Positions 12,775 through 60,708 are shown, counted from the first letter of the stretch. The stretch is 64,000 bases of DNA from an uncultured Candidatus Saccharibacteria bacterium (GCA_964494945.1 CAZBTX010000003.1:47897-111896); one strand, 5' to 3'. A program made the numbers and translations. Notes: generated from the sequence alone by a model not told the origin.

Positions 12775-13311
12775 ATGATCAGCCGACACACTCTCGAAGG
12801 ACACATGGATGTTCGGGAAGTAAAGGTGAGGCCGGCCATATATCACCTGGTCGGTCCAACCACCGAACGGATGCCGGTGATGACGGGCGAACGTCCGATG
12901 AACTGGGGCTGGGAGAAGCTCTCGGAGCTTTCCGAGATCGCCGGGACCCGAGGCACCGATCTGGTGATGGAGTTTATCTGCATCAGGCCCTGGCGCCTCG
13001 GAAGCAGAGAAGGTGGTAGTATCACACTCGCTATCCCCGACTCCCCAGATGGGTTCGTCATGTATGGCAGAGGCGAGAAGTTTCTAACTCGGGGCTGCTG
13101 GGGGAGCGGGCCCCTCTACACTGTCGCGATCGAGGAAGCCGAGTTTCGGTCGTACCTAGACAAGATGATCGCCAGTCATGAGGTTTTTGTGCCGGCCGGA
13201 TGGGCGATCGCGGTCCTTGAGGACATGATGAAGATCCGCCGCCGCAGGGATGATCAGCGACACAATGACGAGGAGCGGCGGCGACGTGAAGAGGCTTCTC
13301 AGTTCGGCTAA
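12775..13311 (+). CDS. Hypothetical 178-aa protein, high-GC (about 60%), family unknown
   Basis: AAGGAGGAGCTC then ATG; candidate promoter TTGACT-N17-TATACC about 100 nt upstream; own GC-rich terminator. Confidence 0.6.
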   Translation: MISRHTLEGHMDVREVKVRPAIYHLVGPTTERMPVMTGERPMNWGWEKLSELSEIAGTRGTDLVMEFICIRPWRLGSREGGSITLAIPDSPDGFVMYGRGEKFLTRGCWGSGPLYTVAIEEAEFRSYLDKMIASHEVFVPAGWAIAVLEDMMKIRRRRDDQRHNDEERRRREEASQFG

Positions 13312-21734: not shown

Positions 21735-22205
21735 CTACCGGTGCGTATGGCCGAGCATCTTCATGAGGCCGGTCACGTCGATGATCGCCCCGTGGGTATG
21801 CTCCTCGATCGTGACGATCTGGCCGCCCCTGCGGATGGCGACGTCGGTCGTCAGCGTCGCCGGGAAGTCCGCCTTGACCTCCCCCCAGAAGAGCTGTTTG
21901 GTGGTCTTCAGCCGGTTCTGGATCTCAGCGTCCTCGGACATCAGCGGCCGAACCCTCTCCTCGAGCGCCACCGCGTTCATCTGCTTGGGATCGATGTCGG
22001 CGATCACGTGAAGGATCCGCCGAAGGAACGCCTCGTACTCGGCGCCGATTTGCTTCACAACGCCCCAGAGGCGCAGGAGCTCATCCGAAGCCGTGCCCAC
22101 GACCGTTTCGTCGGGCTGGGGTTTCGACTCGGCTAGACCCGCCAGCACCTGCTGGGGGTCCACCTTCGCCATCGCGTCCGCGATCTTTCGCATCAGGTTC
22201 GTCAT
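21735..22205 (-). CDS. Hypothetical 156-aa protein, high-GC (about 63%)
   Basis: AAGGAGGCGGCAG then ATG; candidate promoter TTGACA-N17 about 60 nt upstream; own terminator. Confidence 0.6.
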   Translation of the reverse strand: MTNLMRKIADAMAKVDPQQVLAGLAESKPQPDETVVGTASDELLRLWGVVKQIGAEYEAFLRRILHVIADIDPKQMNAVALEERVRPLMSEDAEIQNRLKTTKQLFWGEVKADFPATLTTDVAIRRGGQIVTIEEHTHGAIIDVTGLMKMLGHTHR

Positions 22206-44248: not shown

Positions 44249-44716
44249 TTACTTCACCTTGTAGAACTTCCCCTCCCACGTCACCTTCCGGAGCTCGCCG
44301 GTTCCTCGCAGCATGCCGCCGAAAGTGGGAGAGTACTCCAAATCCCACTTGATCGTGCTCTCCGTTCCACCCTCGAGCTTGAGCTTGAGCTTCTTGTAGT
44401 CGGCGTCGAGGAACGCGGTACCGCTCATGGGGATGTTTCTGTTGCGGTTTGTGTACTGCAGATCGACGTTACCGGCGTCGTCGATCCTCTCCACCACGAA
44501 GATGGTGGGATTCATGCCGTCGTCGTACTTCCACTTGCCGAGGAGCGGCCGGAACTTCTCCGGGGTCTCGGAGGTGGACGCCTTCACAGCATCCTTGGGG
44601 GCACCCTCCTGCGCGACGACCGGGGCCTGCTGGGCCGCGGTGATGGTCGTGAACGTGAACACGTTCACGAGCGCGAACAGCGCGATGATGGGAGTGATAG
44701 CGGTGAGGTTCTTCAT
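44249..44716 (-). CDS. Secreted protein A, 155 aa, high-GC (about 64%), signal peptide MKNLTAITPIIALFALVNVFTFTTITAAQQAPVVAQ
   Basis: GGGAGAAGACC then ATG; classic n-h-c signal peptide; unknown mature domain. Confidence 0.6.
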   Translation of the reverse strand: MKNLTAITPIIALFALVNVFTFTTITAAQQAPVVAQEGAPKDAVKASTSETPEKFRPLLGKWKYDDGMNPTIFVVERIDDAGNVDLQYTNRNRNIPMSGTAFLDADYKKLKLKLEGGTESTIKWDLEYSPTFGGMLRGTGELRKVTWEGKFYKVK

Positions 44717-44741
44717 GGTCTTCTCCCTGTGTTGTGGCGGC

Positions 44742-45089
44742 CTATGTCCCACCACCCTTGACGATCTTGCGGGTCATCTCGTCAACCCCATCGGTTGAAT
44801 CCGGGCTGACGGCGACGCATCTGTGAGTTGCCCAGTCGTACTTCCCGTCCTCCGTGCCGCAGAGGGCGTCCAGGGCCCAGTCGATCCACGTCTCTTCCGG
44901 CTTGGCGCTGTCAAAGCGCGGCCAGTTGGCTGGTGCTGGCGCGAGCACACTGCCGCTACGAGACGTTTCTCCCCCCTGCGCGACGACCGGGGCCTGCTGG
45001 GCCACGGCGGGACTCGTGAACGTGAACACGTTCACGAAGACGAGCGCGAGAACCGTGATGATGGGAAAGAGCGGACGCTTCGTGGTCAT
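44742..45089 (-). CDS. Secreted protein B, 115 aa, high-GC, signal peptide nearly identical to protein A (…VLALVFVNVFTFTSPAVAQQAPVVAQ); unrelated mature domain
   Basis: GGGAGGTTCCGCA then ATG; about 60 nt of near-identical DNA shared with gene A across the signal-peptide region. Confidence 0.6.
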   Translation of the reverse strand: MTTKRPLFPIITVLALVFVNVFTFTSPAVAQQAPVVAQGGETSRSGSVLAPAPANWPRFDSAKPEETWIDWALDALCGTEDGKYDWATHRCVAVSPDSTDGVDEMTRKIVKGGGT

Positions 45090-47622: not shown

Positions 47623-47676
47623 GTGGATCGTTAACAACCAGAATATAATTCAACGTCAAACAAGATGGAGGTTGAC

Positions 47677-48222
47677 ATGCCGAAGCTCGCGGATGTCCTG
47701 CCGGCAGAAGCCAAGACCATTTTTGACGCCAACCCGCTGGACTGGAGTTTCTGCTACGCTAAGGAACGGCTGGCGCGTCTCTATCCGTTCGCTGTAGCGG
47801 ATGTTATCTGGGACGACGGGAGCGGTCTTTATTTGGTCAACGTGGCGCGCTGTCTCGAGGAGTACCCGCGTTTTCAGCACGGGGTCCCGGTAACGATGGC
47901 CAAGCTCTACTGGAAAGAGCCGCCGTCTTTTAAGCATCGCCATTCTTTCCGCGCGCCAGCCACGGCTGGCGTCACAACGCTTCGGGTGACAACAGTGCTA
48001 ACGCCCGCAGAGCTCGCGCACAGTTTCGAGATGGTCGTCCCGGATTTGCTTTGGGGCTGGCTGGAGCGTCGCCGCCGGGCGATCTTCGGTGATGCCGAAA
48101 GCAAGTCAAAGGTATCCTTCACCTTCTTCGCGGAGCACATCCGCGTTGAGGTTGAGGGAGCCGAGAATAGGCCCGATCTTTTCGTCGTCTCACTCGCGCT
48201 GGGCGACTGGGACGACTATTAG
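47677..48222 (+). CDS. Hypothetical 181-aa protein, high-GC (about 62%), 55 nt downstream of tRNA-Arg(CCT)
   Basis: GGAGGTTGAC then ATG; own terminator. Confidence 0.6.
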   Translation: MPKLADVLPAEAKTIFDANPLDWSFCYAKERLARLYPFAVADVIWDDGSGLYLVNVARCLEEYPRFQHGVPVTMAKLYWKEPPSFKHRHSFRAPATAGVTTLRVTTVLTPAELAHSFEMVVPDLLWGWLERRRRAIFGDAESKSKVSFTFFAEHIRVEVEGAENRPDLFVVSLALGDWDDY

Positions 48223-52529: not shown

Positions 52530-52603
52530 GGGCCTATAGTAAAATGGCATTACGCATCCATGGCATGGATGAGTCCGGGGTCCGATTCCCCGTAGGTCCA
52601 CCA
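52530..52603 (+). tRNA. tRNA-Ala (anticodon GGC) with G3·U70 and encoded CCA
   Basis: Acceptor GGGCCTA/TAGGTCC containing the Ala identity wobble pair; anticodon loop ATGGCAT; T-arm CGGGG-TCCGATT-CCCCG (unusual T-loop). Confidence 0.7.
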
Positions 52604-52661
52604 CGTACCAACTTATGCCAAGTTATACCAACTTGTTCCACAGTTTAGTTTAAATGTCTCT

Positions 52662-53210
52662 ATGAAGCGAATTTGCATCTTTCTTTCAGGGTATGTTACA
52701 GATGAAAAATATGCCGGGCCGGCAAAGGAATTCGCTCGGCTTATGTGCCAACATGATTATGGTCTAGTATGGGGCGGCACAAATCTTGGGTTAATGCAAA
52801 TTGTTTGTGAGACGGTCCAGGAAAATGGTGGGAATTTGTGCGGAGTTACGATGGAAATGTTAAAAGATACTCGTAAGCTGGATGCTGATGAGATGATTAT
52901 CGCCAAAGACCTTTCGGAGCGAAAAAAGCTTCTTTTAGAGAAATCCGACGCAATTGTGGTGATGGTTGGAGGAATTGGGACGTTAGATGAAGCGACCGAA
53001 GTTCTTGAACTAAAAAAGCATGGTGCTCACAATAAGCCCATTGTATTTTTAAATACTGATAACTTCTACGGCGGTTTAAAGTCGCAATTAGAAAAAATGG
53101 AGCGAGAAGGATTTTTACCAAAAAGGTTATCAGAACTCACTTATTTCGCAGCGGCGCCTTACGATGCGATAAGCTTTATAGAAAAAGAGCTAAGCTTGAA
53201 CAAAGTATAA
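52662..53210 (+). CDS. LOG-family protein (TIGR00730 Rossmann-fold nucleotide-binding / cytokinin riboside 5'-monophosphate phosphoribohydrolase-like)
   Basis: '...VVMVGGIGTLDE...' PGGxGTxxE motif. Confidence 0.75.
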   Translation: MKRICIFLSGYVTDEKYAGPAKEFARLMCQHDYGLVWGGTNLGLMQIVCETVQENGGNLCGVTMEMLKDTRKLDADEMIIAKDLSERKKLLLEKSDAIVVMVGGIGTLDEATEVLELKKHGAHNKPIVFLNTDNFYGGLKSQLEKMEREGFLPKRLSELTYFAAAPYDAISFIEKELSLNKV

Positions 53211-53264
53211 ATGCCCGAAAACGAACGTCCTAAAATTGGAATAGGTATAATCGTCGTTCGAATA

Positions 53265-53286
53265 GGACAATTCCATAGAATTGTCC
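53265..53286. promoter_or_regulatory. Palindromic operator-like site GGACAATTC-CATAG-GAATTGTCC, copy 1 of a 4-member family. Just downstream of a TATAAT box and upstream of the high-GC gene 53435..54148.
   Basis: 9-5-9 perfect inverted repeat. It and about 30 bp to its right are about 90% identical to copy 2 at 54267-54288. Confidence 0.55.
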
Positions 53287-53328
53287 TATGTTCGTGCTTT
53301 TTCCAAAATTAGCCACCGCGAAAACTTT

Positions 53329-53366
53329 GAAAAATCAGCCAGTGATTGGCTGATTTTTCGTTTGGC
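53329..53366 (+). other. Strong hairpin GAAAAATCAGCCA-GTGAT-TGGCTGATTTTTC followed by GTTT, in the 5' leader of the high-GC gene
   Basis: Perfect 13-bp stem; absent from the otherwise similar copy-2 region. Confidence 0.5.
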
Positions 53367-53434
53367 TGAACTTGTTTTTTCTCTTGCAAAGCGCTACATT
53401 CCCACCACGCGGTCATACACGAAAGGAGAAGGTC

Positions 53435-54148
53435 ATGAGGGAAGAAGATCTCAGTGCGGTGGTTTCCCATGGGGAAAGCTCGCTTCTGAAGACCGATCTC
53501 AACCAAGCGGTAATGGCACTCGCGGCCGCACACGAGTCGCACTTCCGGCCGCACGTTTGCCTGAACGGCGAAGACGGTGTGAGGGTCATCGGCGAAATCA
53601 TGCCAACCTCGAACACGGCGTTCCACCTCTGGCACCACATGATCGCTTCCGGGGACGACGTGTGGCTGAACATCATCCTCTGCGTCTACCTCAACGACTT
53701 CTGCATACCGACCAATCTCGCGCGGTTAAGTCCTCGGCAGTCGGCCTATGTCATCGCGAACCTGCCGGCCGAGTCGCGGACGGCTGTTCTCGCCAAGGCC
53801 AAGCGCTGGTACCTCGAGAGGTTCCTCGCCGACATCAAGAAGGGCCTCGACACCATCACCAAGCAGTTCGAGCACGGTGATCCGCTCCTCGAGAGCGACC
53901 ATCGGAATCGGATCCTCGATCTCCACGGCGAGCGCTTCTCTATGGGCATCCCGTACACCGAGACGTGGGTCGTCGGTGAGCAGCTCTTCTGGGCCACGTG
54001 CTACGGCGGGACGATGTTCGAGCACGAGGAGGACGGGTTCCTCCGCGCGGATGAACTCATCACCGCGAGGCGCGAACGGCAGAAAGGCACTGTCGAAGCT
54101 GTCGTAGGCGTATTCCGGGGGCTGGAGCGGATCAAACGAGGAATTTGA
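53435..54148 (+). CDS. Hypothetical 237-aa protein, high-GC (about 62%)
   Basis: AAGGAGAAGGTC then ATG; the track's longer ORF 53372.. extends through the leader. No family recognised. Confidence 0.6.
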   Translation: MREEDLSAVVSHGESSLLKTDLNQAVMALAAAHESHFRPHVCLNGEDGVRVIGEIMPTSNTAFHLWHHMIASGDDVWLNIILCVYLNDFCIPTNLARLSPRQSAYVIANLPAESRTAVLAKAKRWYLERFLADIKKGLDTITKQFEHGDPLLESDHRNRILDLHGERFSMGIPYTETWVVGEQLFWATCYGGTMFEHEEDGFLRADELITARRERQKGTVEAVVGVFRGLERIKRGI

Positions 54149-54266
54149 CCGTAACGACTTCGGAGATGGAGAGCCATCTCGTCTTACCACAGCCACCCTC
54201 GCCGATGGCAACAGTGCCAACGGCGAGGGTCTCCCATCCCAAAAATCTCCGGTACATGTTCCCATA

Positions 54267-54288
54267 GAACAATTCCATAGAATTGTCC
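54267..54288. promoter_or_regulatory. Palindromic site GAACAATTC-CATAG-GAATTGTCC, copy 2, about 35 bp upstream of the GNAT start
   Basis: Core ACAATTC-CATAG-GAATTGT identical to the other copies. Confidence 0.55.
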
Positions 54289-54321
54289 TATGTTCGCACT
54301 TTTTTCAAAATTGGCCACCAT

Positions 54322-54801
54322 ATGGCAAATCCGGGAAAATCATCAGGAAAAGAGCTGAAAATATCTTTCCGAAAATCTACTAATGAAGATTTTGATTTTG
54401 TCTTTAAGCTTAATAAAACCAACATGCAAAAGTATGTTGAAAAGATAAGAGGATGGGACGAGGAAGCTGAACGCAAAGATATGAAAGACAAGTTTACAGC
54501 TGACATTGATTTGATAATTCAAATAAATGGAGAGGACGCGGGGGTTCTCCGCGTGCTGGAAAAAGAAGGTTCGATAAATCTCGGCCACATTGAGTTACTC
54601 CCCAAGTTTCAGAATCAAGATGTCGGCAGCAAAATTATTGAAGGCGTGATACGTAAAAATAAACCAGTGACCTTACAAGTTCTAAAATCAAATCCCGCCG
54701 TAGAATTATATAAAAGACTTGGATTTGAGATAATGGGAGAAACAGACCTAAAATATAAAATGTCGATTCAAGTAAGCCCAAAATCGACCGTTAATCGATA
54801 A
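54322..54801 (+). CDS. GNAT-family N-acetyltransferase
   Basis: Acetyl-CoA-binding motif region '...QNQDVGSKIIEGVI...LKSNPAVELYKRLGFE'. Confidence 0.7.
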   Translation: MANPGKSSGKELKISFRKSTNEDFDFVFKLNKTNMQKYVEKIRGWDEEAERKDMKDKFTADIDLIIQINGEDAGVLRVLEKEGSINLGHIELLPKFQNQDVGSKIIEGVIRKNKPVTLQVLKSNPAVELYKRLGFEIMGETDLKYKMSIQVSPKSTVNR

Positions 54802-54811
54802 AAGGAGCACT

Positions 54812-54855
54812 AATAAATAAAAAAGCTGCGCCCGCTTGGGAAACCAAGCGGGCGC
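54812..54855 (-). terminator. Rho-independent terminator for 54863..55093 (GCGCCCGCTTGG-GAAA-CCAAGCGGGCGC, then a T-run on the minus strand)
   Basis: Perfect 12-bp stem with GNRA-like loop and AGCTTTTTTATTTATT on the transcribed strand. Confidence 0.7.
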
Positions 54856-54862
54856 CGGTGTT

Positions 54863-55093
54863 CTAGAACTCGAAACGCTGGGGGAGTAACTCCGCTGTTT
54901 CCGGGATCTCCGGGTAGGGGATGTACCCCTCAACCCCCGCTCGCACGCCCTTGATGAACATATCGAGATGTTCACGGGTAGGACAAGTTTCCTCCCAGAC
55001 GCCCCCGTCGCGTTCCACTTCTACGTGGAAGATGTCGATTTCCGGGTCGAGATTGACCCGGTACCGCCTGATGCGGATGGTAATTTCCCTCAC
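54863..55093 (-). CDS. Hypothetical 76-aa protein, high-GC (about 57%); GTG start
   Basis: GGGAGAACTCCGCC then GTG; 13 bp downstream of 55107..55772; followed by a strong terminator. Confidence 0.5.
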   Translation of the reverse strand: MREITIRIRRYRVNLDPEIDIFHVEVERDGGVWEETCPTREHLDMFIKGVRAGVEGYIPYPEIPETAELLPQRFEF

Positions 55094-55106
55094 GGCGGAG
55101 TTCTCC

Positions 55107-55772
55107 CTAGTCCGCCAAGGTGGGGTCGTGAAGATAGGCCGTCTGCTCGAGGAGATGCACGCCCTTCAGCTCAAGATCGGCATGATCGGGGGCACGCAGG
55201 ATTCCCTCGGCGAACATGTGGGTCTGCCCCTCGCTTATCCTGATGCGCGTCCCGTGGCCATTCAGTTGATGGCGCGTTCCAAAGACTGACTGATCCTTTA
55301 CTTCGTCCGGGTCCTTAAACTCCGGCAGGTTGGAAAGAATGACGCTCATGCGGGCCACTTCTTTCCACGAAGACGAAACCGGGAAAGCAAAGATATCTCC
55401 CTGCCGTTTTGCTTTCTTGCCGAGAAGGTTCTCGAGGCGGCGGATGTGAGGAGGGCGCAGGGCTTCAAAAAATCCCTTTTCGCCGCCCTTATTGAAGGCA
55501 TCCCGCACGCTGCCGTTCAGACGCACGAGAAAGGGTTCCTCGTCGGTCCCGCCAAAAAACGTCAAGTCATCGTCGTAGCTGTTTCTCGTTCTCGCGGCGA
55601 AGAGAAACTGCGTCCCTCGGGCAAGCTGCACGATCCGGGCTTCCGGATAGAGCGGAAGTGTAATGATATCTTTTTGTCGCGCGGGAGCCAACCGCTTTTC
55701 ATACGGGACCCATTCGATGCGCGCTTTTCCTGCCCGAGTTGGGAGCTTGGGATTCGACACCATAACGTTCAT
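55107..55772 (-). CDS. Hypothetical 222-aa protein, high-GC (about 55%)
   Basis: GAGGAGGACGAC then ATG (MNVMVSNPKLP...). Confidence 0.55.
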   Translation of the reverse strand: MNVMVSNPKLPTRAGKARIEWVPYEKRLAPARQKDIITLPLYPEARIVQLARGTQFLFAARTRNSYDDDLTFFGGTDEEPFLVRLNGSVRDAFNKGGEKGFFEALRPPHIRRLENLLGKKAKRQGDIFAFPVSSSWKEVARMSVILSNLPEFKDPDEVKDQSVFGTRHQLNGHGTRIRISEGQTHMFAEGILRAPDHADLELKGVHLLEQTAYLHDPTLAD

Positions 55773-55861
55773 GTCGTCCTCCTCTGAAGTTTTAGCTTCT
55801 ATACTTTCAAAGACCCGATTGCATCGTCGCATTTGCGTTGAGATTATCTAGACAATCGGGA

Positions 55862-55888
55862 ATTGACTCAAATTTGATTTGAGTCAAT
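55862..55888. promoter_or_regulatory. Palindrome ATTGACTCAAAT-TTG-ATTTGAGTCAAT, 22 bp upstream of the wHTH-Nudix gene (candidate autoregulatory operator, overlapping a TTGACT -35-like hexamer)
   Basis: Perfect 12-bp arms. Confidence 0.5.
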
Positions 55889-55909
55889 CATTGCTGCGAG
55901 AATAGCATC

Positions 55910-56566
55910 ATGCATTTCATCCAGCAGCACATCCTGAAATTGCTCACCTACGGGGGAGCCAAGCGGTACTCCGATTTGAAACCGTCCGGAGTAGAAGGCA
56001 ACCGGTTTATGTATCATCTGAACCGGCTGATCGCCGGCGGGTACATCCGAAAAACAAAGTCGGGCTATTTTCTCGCGGCATTCGGCAATCGGTATGTTGA
56101 TAAATTGAGTTTGAAAACATTCACGCCCCGCATACAGCCCAAAATCGTCACGGTCCTTCTTTGCCGGAATAAGGCGGGAGAATATCTTACGTACACAAGG
56201 AACCACGAGCCATTTAAGAACTTACTGGCTTTTCCGTACGGCAAGCTGCATCTTACGGAAACCATATATGAAGCGGCGGCGCGCGAACTAAAGGAAAAAA
56301 CCGGCCTTGCCGGTAAACTTTCTCATCGGGGTGATGTGTATCTGAAGATCTTTTTGGAAAAAGAATTTATCACCCACATGCTTTGTCACGTGTTTGAGGG
56401 AAAAGATCTAAAAGGCACGTTGGTCAAGGAGTCCGACTACGGATCATGCCGATGGCAAGCGCTGGATGCCGCCAAATCAAAAGAATGGATACCGGGATTT
56501 TTGGAAATTGAGAAATTATGCCGGAAAGGACCTGCTCGTTTCTTTGACGAGTTGACGCTCTTGTGA
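55910..56566 (+). CDS. NUDIX hydrolase with N-terminal winged-helix DNA-binding domain
   Basis: Nudix box GKLHLTETIYEAAARELKEKTGL; N-terminal '...LLTYGGAKRYSDL...' wHTH-like segment. Confidence 0.7.
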   Translation: MHFIQQHILKLLTYGGAKRYSDLKPSGVEGNRFMYHLNRLIAGGYIRKTKSGYFLAAFGNRYVDKLSLKTFTPRIQPKIVTVLLCRNKAGEYLTYTRNHEPFKNLLAFPYGKLHLTETIYEAAARELKEKTGLAGKLSHRGDVYLKIFLEKEFITHMLCHVFEGKDLKGTLVKESDYGSCRWQALDAAKSKEWIPGFLEIEKLCRKGPARFFDELTLL

Positions 56567-56677
56567 GCCGCATCCATCCCCGGACCAAGTCCCGCGGGGC
56601 TGGGGTTTGAAACACTGCTCCCCGAAAACTGTTTATATACAATATTAATAATTAATAGGGCGTGCCGGCGAAGAAAT

Positions 56678-56710
56678 AGTCATTGAACAATTCCATAGAA
56701 TTGTCCTATG
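56678..56710. promoter_or_regulatory. Palindromic site copy 3 (TAGTCATTGAACAATTC-CATAG-GAATTGTCCTATGA) upstream of the ArsR-family gene, near a TATAAT box
   Basis: Shares left arm with copy 4 and right arm with copies 1/2. Confidence 0.55.
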
Positions 56711-56794
56711 ATACAATGATATACAGATACCTATAATAATAGAAGAGACCTCCTGGTTACTAGATTACCAACAGAACAAACATACAGAACAAAC

Positions 56795-57061
56795 ATGAAA
56801 AGGTGGACAGTGGTTTTTAGAGCCCTGGCAAATATAAACCGGCTTAAGATAATTAAGATGCTCTCCAACGGCCGAAAGATGAGCGTTACCGAGATCGCGG
56901 AAGATATCGGCATTTCCTTCAAGGCAACCTCAAACCATTTGGCGTTGTTGAAGAATTTAGACGTCGTAGAGGCGCGGGGGGCCTTGGGCCATGTTTTCTA
57001 TTCTTTTAATCGGCAACTGCCCAAAGATTTCCAAAAAACAATTGAGATCGCCCTGAAATAG
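56795..57061 (+). CDS. ArsR/SmtB-family transcriptional regulator (no metal-binding Cys motifs)
   Basis: HTH '...MSVTEIAEDIGISFKATSNHLALLKNLDVVEAR...'. Confidence 0.75.
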   Translation: MKRWTVVFRALANINRLKIIKMLSNGRKMSVTEIAEDIGISFKATSNHLALLKNLDVVEARGALGHVFYSFNRQLPKDFQKTIEIALK

Positions 57062-57096
57062 TCATTGAACAATTCCATAGAATTGTTCAATGACTA
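57059..57096. promoter_or_regulatory. Palindromic site copy 4 (TAGTCATTGAACAATTC-CATAG-GAATTGTTCAATGACTA, 17-bp perfect arms). Begins with the ArsR stop codon and is followed by TTTTCTG, so it may double as a terminator hairpin.
   Basis: Contains TGAACA...TGTTCA half-sites typical of ArsR/SmtB-family operators. Confidence 0.55.
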
Positions 57097-57138
57097 TTTT
57101 CTGAAATTCTAATTTCAAAATAGTAAAAATATGAAAAA

Positions 57139-57363
57139 ATGAAAAAATCGGATTACTTTTTTAGAAGTTTAGTGAATGCCGCGGGTGTCTTTATTTATAT
57201 GTCCGGTGTAGCGTGGCTGGGTTTTAATAACCAGATGATTTTCGGCAAGCCAACTAATTTTCTTACGCCGTTATTCGTACTTCTGTTATTCGTCATATCC
57301 GCTTCCGTGACGGGCCTTTTGGTCTTCGAACCCATCTCTAAAATATCTCCAGCCGCGATATAG
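57139..57363 (+). CDS. Small membrane protein, 74 aa, 2 TM
   Basis: ORF with two hydrophobic helices; 77 bp after the ArsR gene. Confidence 0.45.
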   Translation: MKKSDYFFRSLVNAAGVFIYMSGVAWLGFNNQMIFGKPTNFLTPLFVLLLFVISASVTGLLVFEPISKISPAAI

Positions 57364-57454
57364 GCCAATTTCAGGCAATCCCAGAAGCGATGACGAAGGT
57401 GTATCCTCTGCGATACTCTGAGGAGGAGCGACGCAGGAGTGCCTGAAATTGGCC
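57363..57454. repeat. Long inverted repeat GGCCAATTTCAGGCA ... TGCCTGAAATTGGCC (15-bp perfect arms, 62-nt spacer) starting at the stop codon of 57139..57363
   Basis: Seen directly; spacer contains further short repeats (CCTCTGCG twice). Confidence 0.55.
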
Positions 57455-57744
57455 ATATCCCGCAGGGTTCTTACATTTTTCTTCCTCTGCGGCGTTACTC
57501 CTCGTCGCCGTAGTGCTGCGACTACGGCTTCCTCGTCGTGCCTTGCAGGAAAAGAAAAATTCTAAAGAACGCGACTCGGATATATTTTAGAGATGGGTTC
57601 TAGGCAAACCTATTCACTTGTATTTAGGTGGCCTTAGAAAAGAAGCATTTACCTTGCTTTTTGCCACTTTGGCGTGGCTTATTCTCTTTCTTGCCGCGGT
57701 TGTGATTGTGTTATTGGCGCGGTAGTTTTTTCAGTTTTTGTTTG

Positions 57745-60102: not shown

Positions 60103-60263
60103 GGAGGGTTGGCTCGAGTGGGTCAAAAGCCAAGGTCTTGGCTTTTGACGGGAAATTAGCGCAGATTTATCGGAGCGTATAATTTCCCGGGGTTTCGCTG
60201 GCGAGACGCGAGAGCTTCCGCAATAGCGGAGCTCCCGTCTTAGGGAAGCGAAACAAGGCGCCG
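60103..60263 (+). pseudogene. Disrupted tRNA-Ser copy: 19-nt 5' end (GGAGGGTTGGCTCGAGTGG) and a later internal piece (AAGGCGCCGCACTCG) separated by about 125 bp of hairpin-rich insert
   Basis: Both pieces are identical to the corresponding parts of the intact tRNA at 60425-60512. Confidence 0.55.
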
Positions 60264-60424
60264 CACTCGCCCCGCACTAAAAATTTGGAAGCGTGCCAGA
60301 GTGGGCAAAATCTGAATGTTTTCAGGTTTTGCCGGAAAATAGTGTAAATTTATTGAAACGTAATTTTCCGTGGGTTTCGCCGGGGGGCGAAACAATGGGC
60401 GAGAGGTCTCGTCCCGCACTAAGC

Positions 60425-60512
60425 GGAGGGTTGGCTCGAGTGGACTAAGGCGCCGCACTCGAAATGCGGTTGGGGAGAAATCCCCTCAGAGGTTCGAATC
60501 CTCTACCCTCCG
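60425..60512 (+). tRNA. tRNA-Ser (anticodon CGA), class II with long variable arm. Flanked by a perfect 12-bp inverted repeat (CCCGCACTAAGC / GCTTAGTGCGGG) that extends the acceptor stem.
   Basis: Acceptor GGAGGGT/ACCCTCC, anticodon loop CTCGAAA, variable stem GGGGA-GAAA-TCCCC, T-arm AGAGG-TTCGAAT-CCTCT. Confidence 0.75.
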
Positions 60513-60599
60513 CTTAGTGCGGGATTGCGATTTGTTCCTGAAAATTTGCCCCGTAAATTTGTCAGACAAATCGGGAAAAAACCGTTATACCGGAAACGG

Positions 60600-60708
60600 T
60601 ATCGGAGGTTCGAATCCTCCCGCTTCCGTAGTCAAATTTTAGTGCGGGGTAAAAAATGCGGTTGGGGAGCAATCCTCTCGCAGGTTCGAATCCTGCACCC
60701 TCCGCAAG
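60600..60708 (+). pseudogene. Two further partial tRNA 3' halves: 60600-60632 (T-arm GGAGGTTCGAATCCTCC plus acceptor 3') and 60655-60708 (variable arm, T-arm GCAGGTTCGAATCCTGC, ACCCTCCG)
   Basis: The second aligns base-for-base with the 3' half of tRNA-Ser(CGA), with compensatory changes. Confidence 0.55.

What the first reader, a model, noticed from the sequence alone, without database searches (positions are those of the whole stretch)
53265..57096. Four copies of a 7-5-7 palindrome (ACAATTC-CATAG-GAATTGT) defining a small ArsR-family regulon
The palindrome occurs in four places:
- Upstream of the high-GC gene 53435-54148, overlapping a TATAAT box.
- Upstream of a GNAT acetyltransferase (54322).
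- Upstream of the ArsR-family regulator itself (56795).
- Overlapping the regulator's stop codon as a 17-bp perfect-arm hairpin.

Copies 3 and 4 carry TGAACA/TGTTCA half-sites like classical ArsR/SmtB 12-2-12 operators.

Copies 1 and 2 sit inside an about 55-bp block that is about 90% identical between the two loci. This block looks like a portable promoter/operator cassette placed in front of unrelated genes.

The regulator lacks metal-binding cysteines, so its signal is unknown. Putting a foreign high-GC gene under this control is notable.
Basis: partly seen in the sequence, partly recalled or inferred. Interest (0 to 1): 0.55.

Follow-up and report, generated by a model that had tools for sequence, protein, structure and literature searches.

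The report
Palindrome-bracketed ArsR repressor cassette in CPR
A tiny ArsR-type repressor gene in an uncultivated Sungbacteria genome sits between two copies of a near-invariant palindrome that is also its own promoter; the same ~420-bp unit recurs in unrelated places in many candidate-phyla-radiation genomes, so it is probably the repressor's binding site packaged as a relocatable cassette, not the hub of a conserved regulon.

Summary
The core is ACAATTC-CATA-GAATTGT (18 bp, 7-4-7, not 7-5-7). It occurs four times exactly (53267, 54269, 56687, 57069; 0.06 expected).

Comparative evidence supports a cognate operator.
- All 27 ArsR homologs with enough sequence have the palindrome upstream, and most have a second copy at the stop codon. 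This includes three loci chosen without using the motif.
- A 36%-identical paralog has the same layout but a different palindrome (CTAATTCGC|GCGAATTAG).
- Upstream copies supply -35 and -10 hexamers, so the palindrome is the promoter.

"Small regulon" is not supported.
- Relatives of the high-GC gene and of the GNAT lack the site.
- The high-GC gene has its own hairpin/T-run and promoter region between copy 1 and its start.
- About 60 solo copies in other genomes lie beside unrelated housekeeping genes.
- Homology between arsR units from different MAGs stops at the outer palindrome edges, which defines a ~420-bp cassette.
- The 12-2-12 resemblance is superficial.

How the cassette moves, what the 3' copy does and what signal the repressor senses are unknown. 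I found no prior description. I rate it a new variant of a known kind, with moderate interest.

The parts
53262..53289 (.). Copy 1: perfect 12-4-12 palindrome ATAGGACAATTC-CATA-GAATTGTCCTAT (core 53267-53284). Promoter-like reading rightwards: AGGACA-17-TATGTT.
   Evidence: DNA hairpin dG -12.6, z -7.2. The promoter reading is inferred by analogy with arsR-upstream sites; it falls below the threshold of the scan.
53256..53317 (+). 62-nt block, copy 1 (palindrome plus 33-nt leader-like right flank), 89% identical to 54258-54319
   Evidence: (D3)
53329..53359 (+). Terminator-like hairpin plus T-run that belongs to the high-GC gene unit and lies between copy 1 and the ORF
   Evidence: RNA fold dG -18.8, z -5.4. 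Conserved upstream of the homolog in L117, where homology starts at about 53320, 3 nt after the block ends. Not flagged by the simple terminator scan.
53435..54148 (+). High-GC hypothetical ORF (237 aa; GC 0.60, GC3 0.77); member of a small CPR-only family with no Pfam or NCBIfam hit
   Evidence: Homologs in L113-L117 have no palindrome.
54258..54319 (+). 62-nt block, copy 2, ending 2 nt before the GNAT start codon
54263..54292 (.). Copy 2: imperfect palindrome CATAGAACAATTC-CATA-GAATTGTCCTATG (core 54269-54286), 35 nt upstream of the GNAT ATG. Promoter-like reading: AGAACA-17-TATGTT.
   Evidence: The closest GNAT relative (L118, 73% identity) lacks the site.
54322..54801 (+). GNAT acetyltransferase (159 aa), the likeliest extra target of the repressor in this genome
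   Evidence: Acetyltransf_7 and Acetyltransf_10 above cut-off
56676..57099 (+). arsR cassette: palindrome, leader, arsR, palindrome. This is the unit conserved between MAGs.
   Evidence: Window vs L103 homology spans 56680-57097 (80%, 429 nt). Window vs L096 spans 56676-57131. Flanks outside are unrelated, and genomic contexts are unrelated.
56681..56712 (+). Copy 3: hybrid palindrome CATTGAACAATTC-CATA-GAATTGTCCTATG (core 56687-56704), which is the arsR core promoter: -35 TTGAAC (56683-56688), 18-nt spacer, -10 TATGAT (56707-56712)
   Evidence: Promoter scan (9/12). The gene-facing arm is CCTAT[G/A]AT in most homolog loci. A second promoter-like site lies at 56708-56737 (10/12).
56795..57061 (+). 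Minimal ArsR/SmtB-type wHTH repressor (88 aa), without Cys and without alpha3N or alpha5 sensing sites
57056..57099 (.). Copy 4: perfect 20-4-20 palindrome overlapping the arsR stop codon (core 57069-57086); conserved 3' site of the cassette
   Evidence: I9; DNA dG -19.8, RNA dG -26.7. A site at or after the stop codon is present in most homolog loci and in the distant paralog family.
57139..57363 (+). Small hydrophobic ORF (74 aa) 52 nt downstream of copy 4; a possible but unconserved downstream target
   Evidence: no family. Genes downstream of the cassette differ in other genomes.

Best explanation
The palindrome (consensus CATWGR-ACAATTC-YATR-GAATTGT-YCWATG, about 32 bp) is the cognate DNA site of a CPR-specific, sensor-less minimal ArsR-type winged-helix repressor.

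In its native unit the upstream copy is the core promoter. The distal arm gives a -35-like hexamer, the conserved 18-mer is the 17-18-bp spacer, and the proximal arm gives the -10 (TATGAT or TATAAT). A bound dimer on AATTC-N4-GAATT would therefore occlude RNA polymerase and give negative autoregulation.

A second copy overlaps the stop codon. It most likely acts as a protein roadblock, a hairpin insulator or a cooperative partner site.

Palindrome, arsR and palindrome together form a discrete ~420-bp cassette (window 56676-57099) that has been relocated or transferred among CPR genomes.

In this genome, two further promoter-type copies sit in a duplicated 62-bp promoter/operator/leader block.
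- Copy 2 probably puts the GNAT gene under the repressor.
- Copy 1 is separated from the high-GC gene by that gene's own terminator-like hairpin and promoter region, so it probably does not control it.

Shown here: the copies, the association with arsR, the co-variation of protein and palindrome, the promoter hexamers and the cassette boundaries. Inferred: binding, repression, the role of the 3' copy and the mode of relocation.
For: - Four exact copies are present.
- The exact 18-mer occurs in 101 genome stretches, about 85 of them in Patescibacteria MAGs of many lineages. Chance expectation is roughly 17 by my estimate.
- An ArsR homolog (63-88% identity) lies next to the site in 28 loci and is the only recurrent neighbour.
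- All 24 motif-ascertained homologs with flank have an upstream site 12-91 nt from the start, with a CCTAT[G/A]AT arm facing the gene.
- Three homolog loci chosen without the motif all show site-arsR-site, with no other copy within +-10 kb.
- The distant paralog (36% identity, different recognition helix) is bracketed in the same way by a different palindrome that shares AATTC-N4-GAATT.
- The promoter scan calls TTGAAC-18-TATGAT across copy 3.
- Arms with a strong -10 face gene starts in 11 of 16 cases.
- Mismatch types show no strand bias, so this is a DNA-level feature.
- Cassette homology ends at the outer edges of the palindromes.
- The 18-bp conserved core matches the size of a single ArsR-dimer site (my own knowledge of ArsR/SmtB-DNA complexes).
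Against: - No binding or expression data exist; everything is comparative inference.
- Most solo copies in other genomes lack a -10 and face gene ends more often than starts.
- Solo copies lie between co-directional genes and avoid divergent spacers. That is unexpected for ordinary operators.
- The variable flank triplets covary within each site although the recognition helix is invariant. Independent binding of two half-sites by a dimer does not explain this.
- Copies 1 and 2 fall below the promoter-scan threshold.
- Near-exact conservation of about 32 bp at non-orthologous positions needs a copying mechanism that I could not identify.
Confidence: 0.62

Rival explanations
1. The palindromes are crossover sites for a host-encoded site-specific recombinase (Xer-like). 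They delimit mobile gene cassettes in an array (c1|high-GC|c2|GNAT..NUDIX|c3|arsR|c4), analogous to pdif modules or integron attC arrays. On this view arsR is cargo or an accessory DNA-binding factor. This could coexist with operator function.
For: - Cassette homology ends exactly at the palindromes.
- The unit sits in unrelated contexts.
- Arrays of site-gene-site-arsR-site recur (L011, L064, L100 and the window), with accessory or unknown cargo.
- Hybrid arms exist, about 20% of sites.
- A partial tandem arsR fragment is present in L093.
- The orientation of the centre is uncoupled from the arm types.
Against: - No recombinase is among the neighbours.
- tblastn with a CPR Xer-like probe finds nothing in the window or in about 100 loci (sensitivity is limited).
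- The two sites of one cassette are each self-symmetric but of different types (L064, L079, L106). A crossover in the core would instead make the outer arms complementary to each other.
- Hybrids concentrate at arsR promoters, where a -35-type arm plus a -10-type arm has a functional explanation.
- The palindrome co-varies with the protein.
Confidence: 0.2
2. The palindromes are REP/PATE-like hairpin elements dispersed as single-stranded DNA by an HUH Y1 transposase (RAYT or IS200/IS605 type) acting in trans. On this view arsR is merely a passenger between two hairpin ends.
For: - The gene is bracketed by dispersed intergenic palindromes, which resembles RAYT flanked by REPs.
- A Y1_Tnp gene lies next to the arsR cassette in L106.
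- The copies look 'copy-pasted' and are nearly exact.
Against: - The L106 Y1_Tnp is a singleton among all loci and has its own, different flanking repeats (GGGGTCAGCCACC).
- No Y1 gene recurs.
- There is no strand or orientation bias of the kind expected for top-strand hairpin recognition.
- There are only about 3-10 copies per genome.
Confidence: 0.05
3. The palindromes act at RNA level as intrinsic terminators or processing hairpins. Their link to arsR is incidental.
For: - The hairpins are very stable (c4 RNA dG -26.7, z -10).
- Many solo copies lie within about 50 nt of a gene end.
- Some are followed by T-runs (L001, c4).
Against: - G.T and A.C mismatches are symmetric between the strands.
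- The centre is oriented 23:15 relative to transcription, which is not significant.
- Sites are depleted from convergent spacers, where terminators should be enriched.
- T-runs are inconsistent.
- An invariant apical 18-mer that changes together with a DNA-binding protein is not a property of terminators.
Confidence: 0.05
4. The repeats or the GC mosaic are an assembly artefact: a chimeric join at a shared repeat.
For: - The repeat breaks assemblies. The Logan contig L110 ends inside copy 3.
- Many homologs sit on contigs of about 1 kb.
Against: - An independent k-mer assembly reproduces window 52575-56702 at 100% identity, including copy 1, the high-GC ORF, copy 2 and GNAT.
- The longest exact repeat shared by c1 and c2 is 28 nt.
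- The same architecture is seen in dozens of unrelated assemblies.
Confidence: 0.02

Closest known systems
Autoregulated ArsR/SmtB-family repressors (SmtB, CzrA, and non-metal members such as HlyU, BigR, SdpR, NolR)
   Same: - The protein has the HTH_5 winged-helix fold family, with sequence homology to SmtB, CzrA and HlyU.
- A palindromic operator overlaps the gene's own promoter.
- The expected logic is dimer binding and negative autoregulation.
   Different: - It has no alpha3N or alpha5 sensing residues and no conserved Cys.
- The operator is AATTC-N4-GAATT within a ~32-bp palindrome, not 12-2-12 with TGAACA-N2-TGTTCA.
- The gene is bracketed by two copies, the second overlapping the stop codon.
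- The whole unit is a relocatable cassette.
- Extra copies are nearly exact rather than degenerate.
REP elements with their RAYT gene (REPINs)
   Same: - A single-copy gene is flanked by copies of a short intergenic palindrome that is also dispersed around the genome.
- The copies are nearly identical within and between genomes.
   Different: - The bracketed gene encodes an 88-aa DNA-binding protein with no catalytic (HUH/Y1) domain.
- There are 3-10 copies per genome rather than hundreds.
- The inner part is conserved and the outer part variable.
- There is no associated transposase.
pdif modules (XerC/D-site-flanked gene modules on Acinetobacter plasmids) and integron attC cassettes
   Same: - Short, partly palindromic sites delimit small gene modules with diverse cargo.
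- No recombinase is encoded in the module.
- Arrays of modules occur.
   Different: - The site is unlike dif (11-6-11) and unlike attC.
- The arm pattern is not that expected from a crossover in the core.
- No integrase was found.
- The site doubles as a promoter and co-varies with the encoded DNA-binding protein.
Global plasmid repressors with dispersed exact palindromic operators (KorA and KorB of IncP plasmids)
   Same: A small repressor recognises several nearly identical palindromes. Some are promoter-embedded and some are distal to promoters.
   Different: This module is chromosomal in CPR and absent from the plasmid and phage collections. The protein belongs to a different fold family. 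The targets are not conserved.

Membership tests
ArsR/SmtB family transcriptional repressors | HTH_5-type winged helix-turn-helix domain | tested here: met
   Pfam PF01022 scores 43 bits (cut-off 22). NCBIfam NF033788 scores 57.8 bits (cut-off 55). phmmer to SmtB 1r22 gives E 6e-7, with CzrA and HlyU also matched.
ArsR/SmtB family transcriptional repressors | Metal or metalloid sensing site (alpha3/alpha3N Cys motif, or alpha5 Asp/His/Glu site) | tested here: not met
   The window protein has no Cys, and only 4 of 101 homologs have any. The only conserved His are H48 (recognition helix) and H66 (GHVFY). The C-terminal helix has no His/Asp/Glu cluster. It is therefore a member of the fold family but not a metalloregulator.
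ArsR/SmtB family transcriptional repressors | Classical 12-2-12 operator (TGAACA-N2-TGTTCA core) | tested here: not met
   TGAACA and TGTTCA occur only in copy 4, and they are 12 bp apart. The TGA part varies across sites. Classical examples are in PMC8790569 Table 2.
ArsR/SmtB family transcriptional repressors | Palindromic operator overlapping the gene's own promoter (autoregulation) | tested here: met
   Position only. An upstream site is present in all homolog loci with enough flank, and -35/-10 hexamers lie in the arms. Binding and repression cannot be tested with these tools.
ArsR/SmtB family transcriptional repressors | Homodimer that binds DNA and is released by an effector | not testable with these tools
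   No structure prediction or biochemistry was run. The effector is unknown.
Integron gene cassettes / attC | Adjacent IntI tyrosine recombinase with attI and Pc | tested here: not met
   No recombinase is among the site neighbours. tblastn with a Xer-like probe finds nothing in the window or in about 100 loci (limited sensitivity).
Integron gene cassettes / attC | attC structure: conserved outer R''/R' (GTTRRRY) with variable inner sequence and extrahelical bases | tested here: not met
   The pattern is the opposite here. The inner 18-mer is invariant, the outer arms are variable, and the stems are perfect.
REP/RAYT (REPIN) systems | HUH Y1 transposase gene flanked by the REPs | tested here: not met
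   The bracketed gene is ArsR. The single Y1_Tnp seen (L106) has different repeats of its own and does not recur.
REP/RAYT (REPIN) systems | Tens to hundreds of intergenic copies per genome | tested here: inconclusive
   I counted about 3-10 exact copies per MAG among the loci returned. Whole genomes were not scanned, and variant centres (TATA, CATG) were not searched for in the collections.
Intrinsic terminators | Strand-specific GC-rich hairpin followed by a U-tract at gene 3' ends | tested here: not met
   There is no strand bias and no orientation bias. Sites are depleted from convergent spacers. The stems are AT-rich, and none of the four copies is called by the terminator scan.

The most novel reading that the evidence does not exclude
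The palindrome-arsR-palindrome unit is a previously undescribed kind of minimal mobile regulatory element in CPR bacteria. It would be a repressor gene that travels with its own promoter/operator palindromes, which also mark the ends of the element. It would seed solo or cargo-bracketing copies between co-directional host genes, rewiring or insulating their transcription. It would move without an element-encoded recombinase, using host recombination, replication template-switching, or cruciform processing at the palindrome.
Probability: 0.25. Interest if true: 0.8.

Novelty: new variant of a known kind. Interest (0 to 1): 0.55.

Why it matters
CPR/Patescibacteria have very small genomes and few recognisable regulators, and almost nothing is known about how they control transcription. 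This analysis gives a concrete protein-DNA pair that can be tested directly: an 88-aa repressor and a ~32-bp site that is also a promoter. The pair is conserved almost base-for-base across many uncultivated lineages, and a paralogous pair offers a natural specificity swap.

If the cassette really is mobile, it would be an example of a transcription factor spreading together with its binding sites. That would make it a mechanism for rapid regulatory rewiring and a source of assembly breaks in CPR metagenomes. It would also be a compact, orthogonal repressor/promoter part.

If it is only an autoregulated orphan repressor, it is an ordinary ArsR-family member with an unusual second site at its stop codon.

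Tried and rejected
- Rfam finds nothing in the region.
- RNA hairpin or terminator: rejected on strand symmetry, orientation and intergenic class.
- Specificity variants of the protein as an explanation for half-site types: rejected, because the recognition helix is invariant.
- Y1 transposase link: rejected as coincidence.
- Phage or plasmid carriage: no relatives found.
- Conserved regulon: rejected. Neighbours are heterogeneous, and relatives of the high-GC ORF and the GNAT lack the site.
- obg-linked orthologous full-versus-solo comparison: not clean. Two of the four genes are YchF, and synteny differs.
- Chimeric assembly: rejected.
- All-versus-all flank BLAST to define larger repeat units: the output was swamped by arsR homology and was only partly useful.
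- More distant ArsR homologs from the protein search were not retrievable, because only the top 120 were stored.
- One call failed on wrong coordinates and one on term length.
- Literature searches for the motif and for CPR palindromes or ArsR returned nothing relevant.

Full report
**1. Observation**

The region contains four exact, co-oriented copies of an 18-bp core, ACAATTCCATAGAATTGT, at 53267, 54269, 56687 and 57069.
- No other site in the 64-kb window comes within three mismatches. Chance expectation is 0.06.
The motif is 7-4-7, and the 7-5-7 pattern as written returns only chance matches.
- The palindromes extend beyond the core:
  - copy 1 is a perfect 12-4-12;
  - copies 2 and 3 are imperfect;
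  - copy 4 is a perfect 20-4-20 (57056-57099) containing the arsR stop codon.
- Copies 1 and 2 lie in a 62-nt block that is 89% identical (53256-53317 and 54258-54319).
- Gene calls:
  - the regulator (56795-57061) is an HTH_5/ArsR protein;
  - 54322-54801 is a GNAT;
  - 55910-56566 is a NUDIX protein;
  - 52662-53210 is a LOG-family protein;
  - the high-GC ORF and two minus-strand ORFs match no family.
- The window comes from a Candidatus Sungbacteria MAG.

**2. The motif is not local**

The exact 18-mer occurs in 101 stretches of the species-representative genome collection. My estimate of the chance expectation for 596 Gb is about 17.
- About 85 of the stretches are in Patescibacteria MAGs labelled Sung-, Lipton-, Taga-, Staskawicz-, Jorgensen- and Wolfebacteria, Paceibacterota and Saccharibacteria. 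They typically carry 3-10 copies per MAG.
- A dozen hits in other phyla have no palindromic flanks and look like chance.
- A few tiny contigs carry archaeal or proteobacterial labels and are probably mis-binned.
- Across 120 unique sites the context is CATWGR-core-YCWATG.
- The two arms pair far more often than shuffling predicts: at +-1, 95 observed against 47+-4.6 expected; at +-3, 89 against 49; at +-4, 107 against 78; at +-7, 68 against 49. The excess is weak at +-8 to +-11 and absent beyond.
- G.T and A.C mismatches are equally frequent on both strands, so the symmetry is a property of the DNA and not of one transcript.
- Near-miss variants are mainly centre variants, TATA and CATG, both of which make the site perfectly symmetric. 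The centre is therefore YATR.

**3. Link to the ArsR protein**

- tblastn finds an 88-aa homolog (63-88% identity, starting MKRW) in 28 of the site-bearing loci. It is the only recurrent neighbour among 169 flanking ORFs.
- Every one of 24 homologs with enough flank has a site 12-91 nt upstream. Most have a second site at or just after the stop codon.
- I then took three homologs from the protein database without reference to the motif. All three loci (L103-105, L106, L107-109) show site-arsR-site, no further copy within +-10 kb, and unrelated neighbouring genes.
- A distant paralog (about 36% identity, recognition helix LSFKSTSKHLGVL instead of ISFKATSNHLALL) in L071 and L075 has the same layout, with one palindrome upstream and one overlapping the stop codon. 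Its palindrome is different: CTAATTCGC|GCGAATTAG. The two families share AATTC-N4-GAATT and differ in the centre and the flanking dinucleotides.
- Protein and palindrome therefore change together. This is the strongest computational evidence available that the palindrome is the protein's binding site.
- Within the main family the recognition helix is invariant whatever the flank type. The variable flank triplets are therefore not specificity determinants.

**4. The upstream copy is a promoter**

- At arsR genes the arm facing the gene is nearly always CCTATGAT or CCTATAAT, which is a -10 box. The distal arm gives TTGAAC, TGAACA or AGGACA 17-18 bp upstream.
- In the window the simple promoter scan independently calls TTGAAC-18-TATGAT across copy 3. 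It also calls a second promoter-like site just downstream.
- This accounts for the 'hybrid' arms at arsR promoters: a -35-type arm on one side and a -10-type arm on the other.
- Over all sites, arms with a strong -10 face a gene start in 11 of 16 cases. Arms without a -10 (206) face 51 starts and 81 ends.

**5. There is no conserved regulon**

- Homologs of the high-GC ORF in five other contigs have no palindrome, even allowing four mismatches.
- The closest GNAT relative (73% identity) has none either.
- The high-GC gene brings its own upstream region. Homology with L117 begins at about 53320, 3 nt after the 62-nt block ends. It includes a conserved hairpin plus T-run (RNA dG -18.8, z -5.4) and a promoter-like stretch. 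A terminator-like element therefore stands between copy 1 and the ORF, and control of that gene by the palindrome is doubtful.
- Its GC content (0.60; GC3 0.77) is high but not unique in the window. The family is GC-richer than its host contig wherever I looked.
- An independent Logan assembly reproduces window 52575-56702 at 100% identity and stops inside copy 3. The arrangement is therefore real, and the repeat breaks assemblies.
- Genes next to solo sites in other genomes are a miscellany of housekeeping functions, with no recombinase or transposase among them.
- Solo sites lie between co-directional genes: 38 tandem, 3 divergent and 2 convergent, against a background of 272, 73 and 78 (chi-square p=0.004; Fisher p=0.001).
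- The orientation of the asymmetric centre relative to transcription is not significantly biased (23:15).

**6. A cassette**

- Nucleotide homology between the window and L103 runs from 56680 to 57097 (80% over 429 nt). Homology with the Liptonbacteria locus L096 runs from 56676 to 57131.
- Homology therefore starts at the outer edge of copy 3's left arm and, for L103, ends at the outer edge of copy 4's right arm. Outside these limits the sequences and gene contexts are unrelated.
- The conserved entity is therefore a ~420-bp unit whose ends are the palindromes, and it has been placed at different loci in different genomes.
- Several loci also show a second gene bracketed by sites next to the arsR unit (L011, L064, L100 and the window). 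L088 has a different GNAT bracketed by sites about 40 kb from that genome's arsR. The bracketed genes are mostly unknown or accessory.
- The unit has no relatives in the viral contig, phage or plasmid collections.

**7. Mechanism and rivals**

I commit to the following model: the palindrome is the operator of this repressor, copy 3 is an autoregulated promoter, and the unit is a relocatable cassette. Copy 2 probably extends repression to the GNAT, and copy 1 is probably a duplicated promoter/operator block without a clear target.

Rivals considered:
- **Recombination sites.** This rival is attractive because of the cassette boundaries, the arrays and the hybrid arms. Three points count against it:
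  - The two sites of one cassette are each self-symmetric yet of different types (L064, L079, L106). A crossover inside the core would not produce that pattern.
  - No recombinase was found.
  - Hybrid arms have a promoter explanation.
- **REP/RAYT-like reading.** It fails because the only Y1 transposase seen has its own, different repeats.
- **RNA terminator reading.** It fails on strand symmetry, orientation and intergenic class.

Three things remain unexplained: the self-symmetry of each site's variable flanks, the role of the stop-codon copy (conserved even in the paralog family), and the means of relocation.

**8. Comparison with known systems**

- The protein is a member of the ArsR/SmtB fold family.
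- It lacks the sensing sites that define the metalloregulators.
- Its operator is not a 12-2-12 site. Classical sites are TGAACA-N2-TGTTCA (PMC8790569). Here the hexamers are 12 bp apart and are not conserved.
- Autoregulation through a promoter-embedded palindrome is ordinary for the family.
- The unusual features are the bracketed architecture, the near-exact conservation, the dispersed copies and the cassette behaviour.
- Literature searches found no prior description.

**9. Verdict**

- Observation: confirmed with corrections.
- Interpretation: partly supported.
- Novelty: new variant of a known kind.
- Interest: moderate (0.55).
- More novel reading: the unit is a mobile repressor-plus-operator element. 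I give this about 0.25 probability; it would be considerably more interesting if true.

Noticed in passing
L071:4853-5193 and L075:455-808: A second, distant ArsR-like family (86 aa, about 36% identity) is bracketed by its own palindrome, CTAATTCGC|GCGAATTAG, with the 3' copy again overlapping the stop codon. In L075 a TspO/MBR-like membrane gene starts 12 nt after it.
   Followed up: partly
window 60103-60705: tRNA-Ser (60425-60513) has partial copies nearby. 60654-60705 is 88% identical to its 3' half, and 60103-60121 is identical to its first 19 nt. These may be att-like remnants of integration events.
   Followed up: no
window 57328-57600: A 23-nt inverted repeat (96% complementary, 227 nt apart) contains a nested inverted repeat (57363-57381 / 57436-57454) and overlaps the 3' end of the small ORF downstream of arsR. 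It is MITE-like or a structured element.
   Followed up: no
L106:8900-9900: A Y1_Tnp (PF01797) gene is flanked by inverted copies of its own GGGGTCAGCCACC-containing repeat, which is a REP/RAYT-like arrangement. It lies immediately upstream of an arsR cassette but is unrelated to the arsR palindrome.
   Followed up: partly
window 21735-22205, 44249-44755, 47665-48222, 12775-13311: Small genes with very high GC3 (0.70-0.89) are scattered through a 47.6% GC window. GC mosaicism is general here and is not specific to the palindrome locus.
   Followed up: no
L113-L117 (homologs of window 53435-54148): The uncharacterised 237-aa protein family is GC-richer than its host contig in every case (0.55 vs 0.44, 0.43 vs 0.375, 0.57 vs 0.515). 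It keeps a conserved hairpin plus promoter-like upstream region.
   Followed up: partly
L110 (equals window 52575-56702): An independent k-mer assembly terminates exactly inside the copy-3 core. Many ArsR homologs are on contigs of about 1 kb, so the palindrome is a recurrent cause of assembly breaks in CPR metagenomes.
   Followed up: partly
L092:760-1240; L050:36-513; L088:2586-3226: Some genomes have tight clusters of palindromes. Examples are three copies at about 60-bp spacing next to arsR in L092, and three copies around a GNAT in L088. Short secondary repeats lie between the copies.
   Followed up: no
window 54863-55772 (minus strand): Two adjacent high-GC ORFs (76 aa and 221 aa) with no family match lie between the GNAT terminator and the NUDIX gene. 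The NUDIX protein has an N-terminal wHTH-like hit (DUF7347, below cut-off).
   Followed up: no
L093:4753-4845: A partial arsR fragment (residues 58-88) lies directly upstream of the palindrome that precedes a full arsR copy. This is evidence of tandem duplication or decay of the cassette.
   Followed up: no
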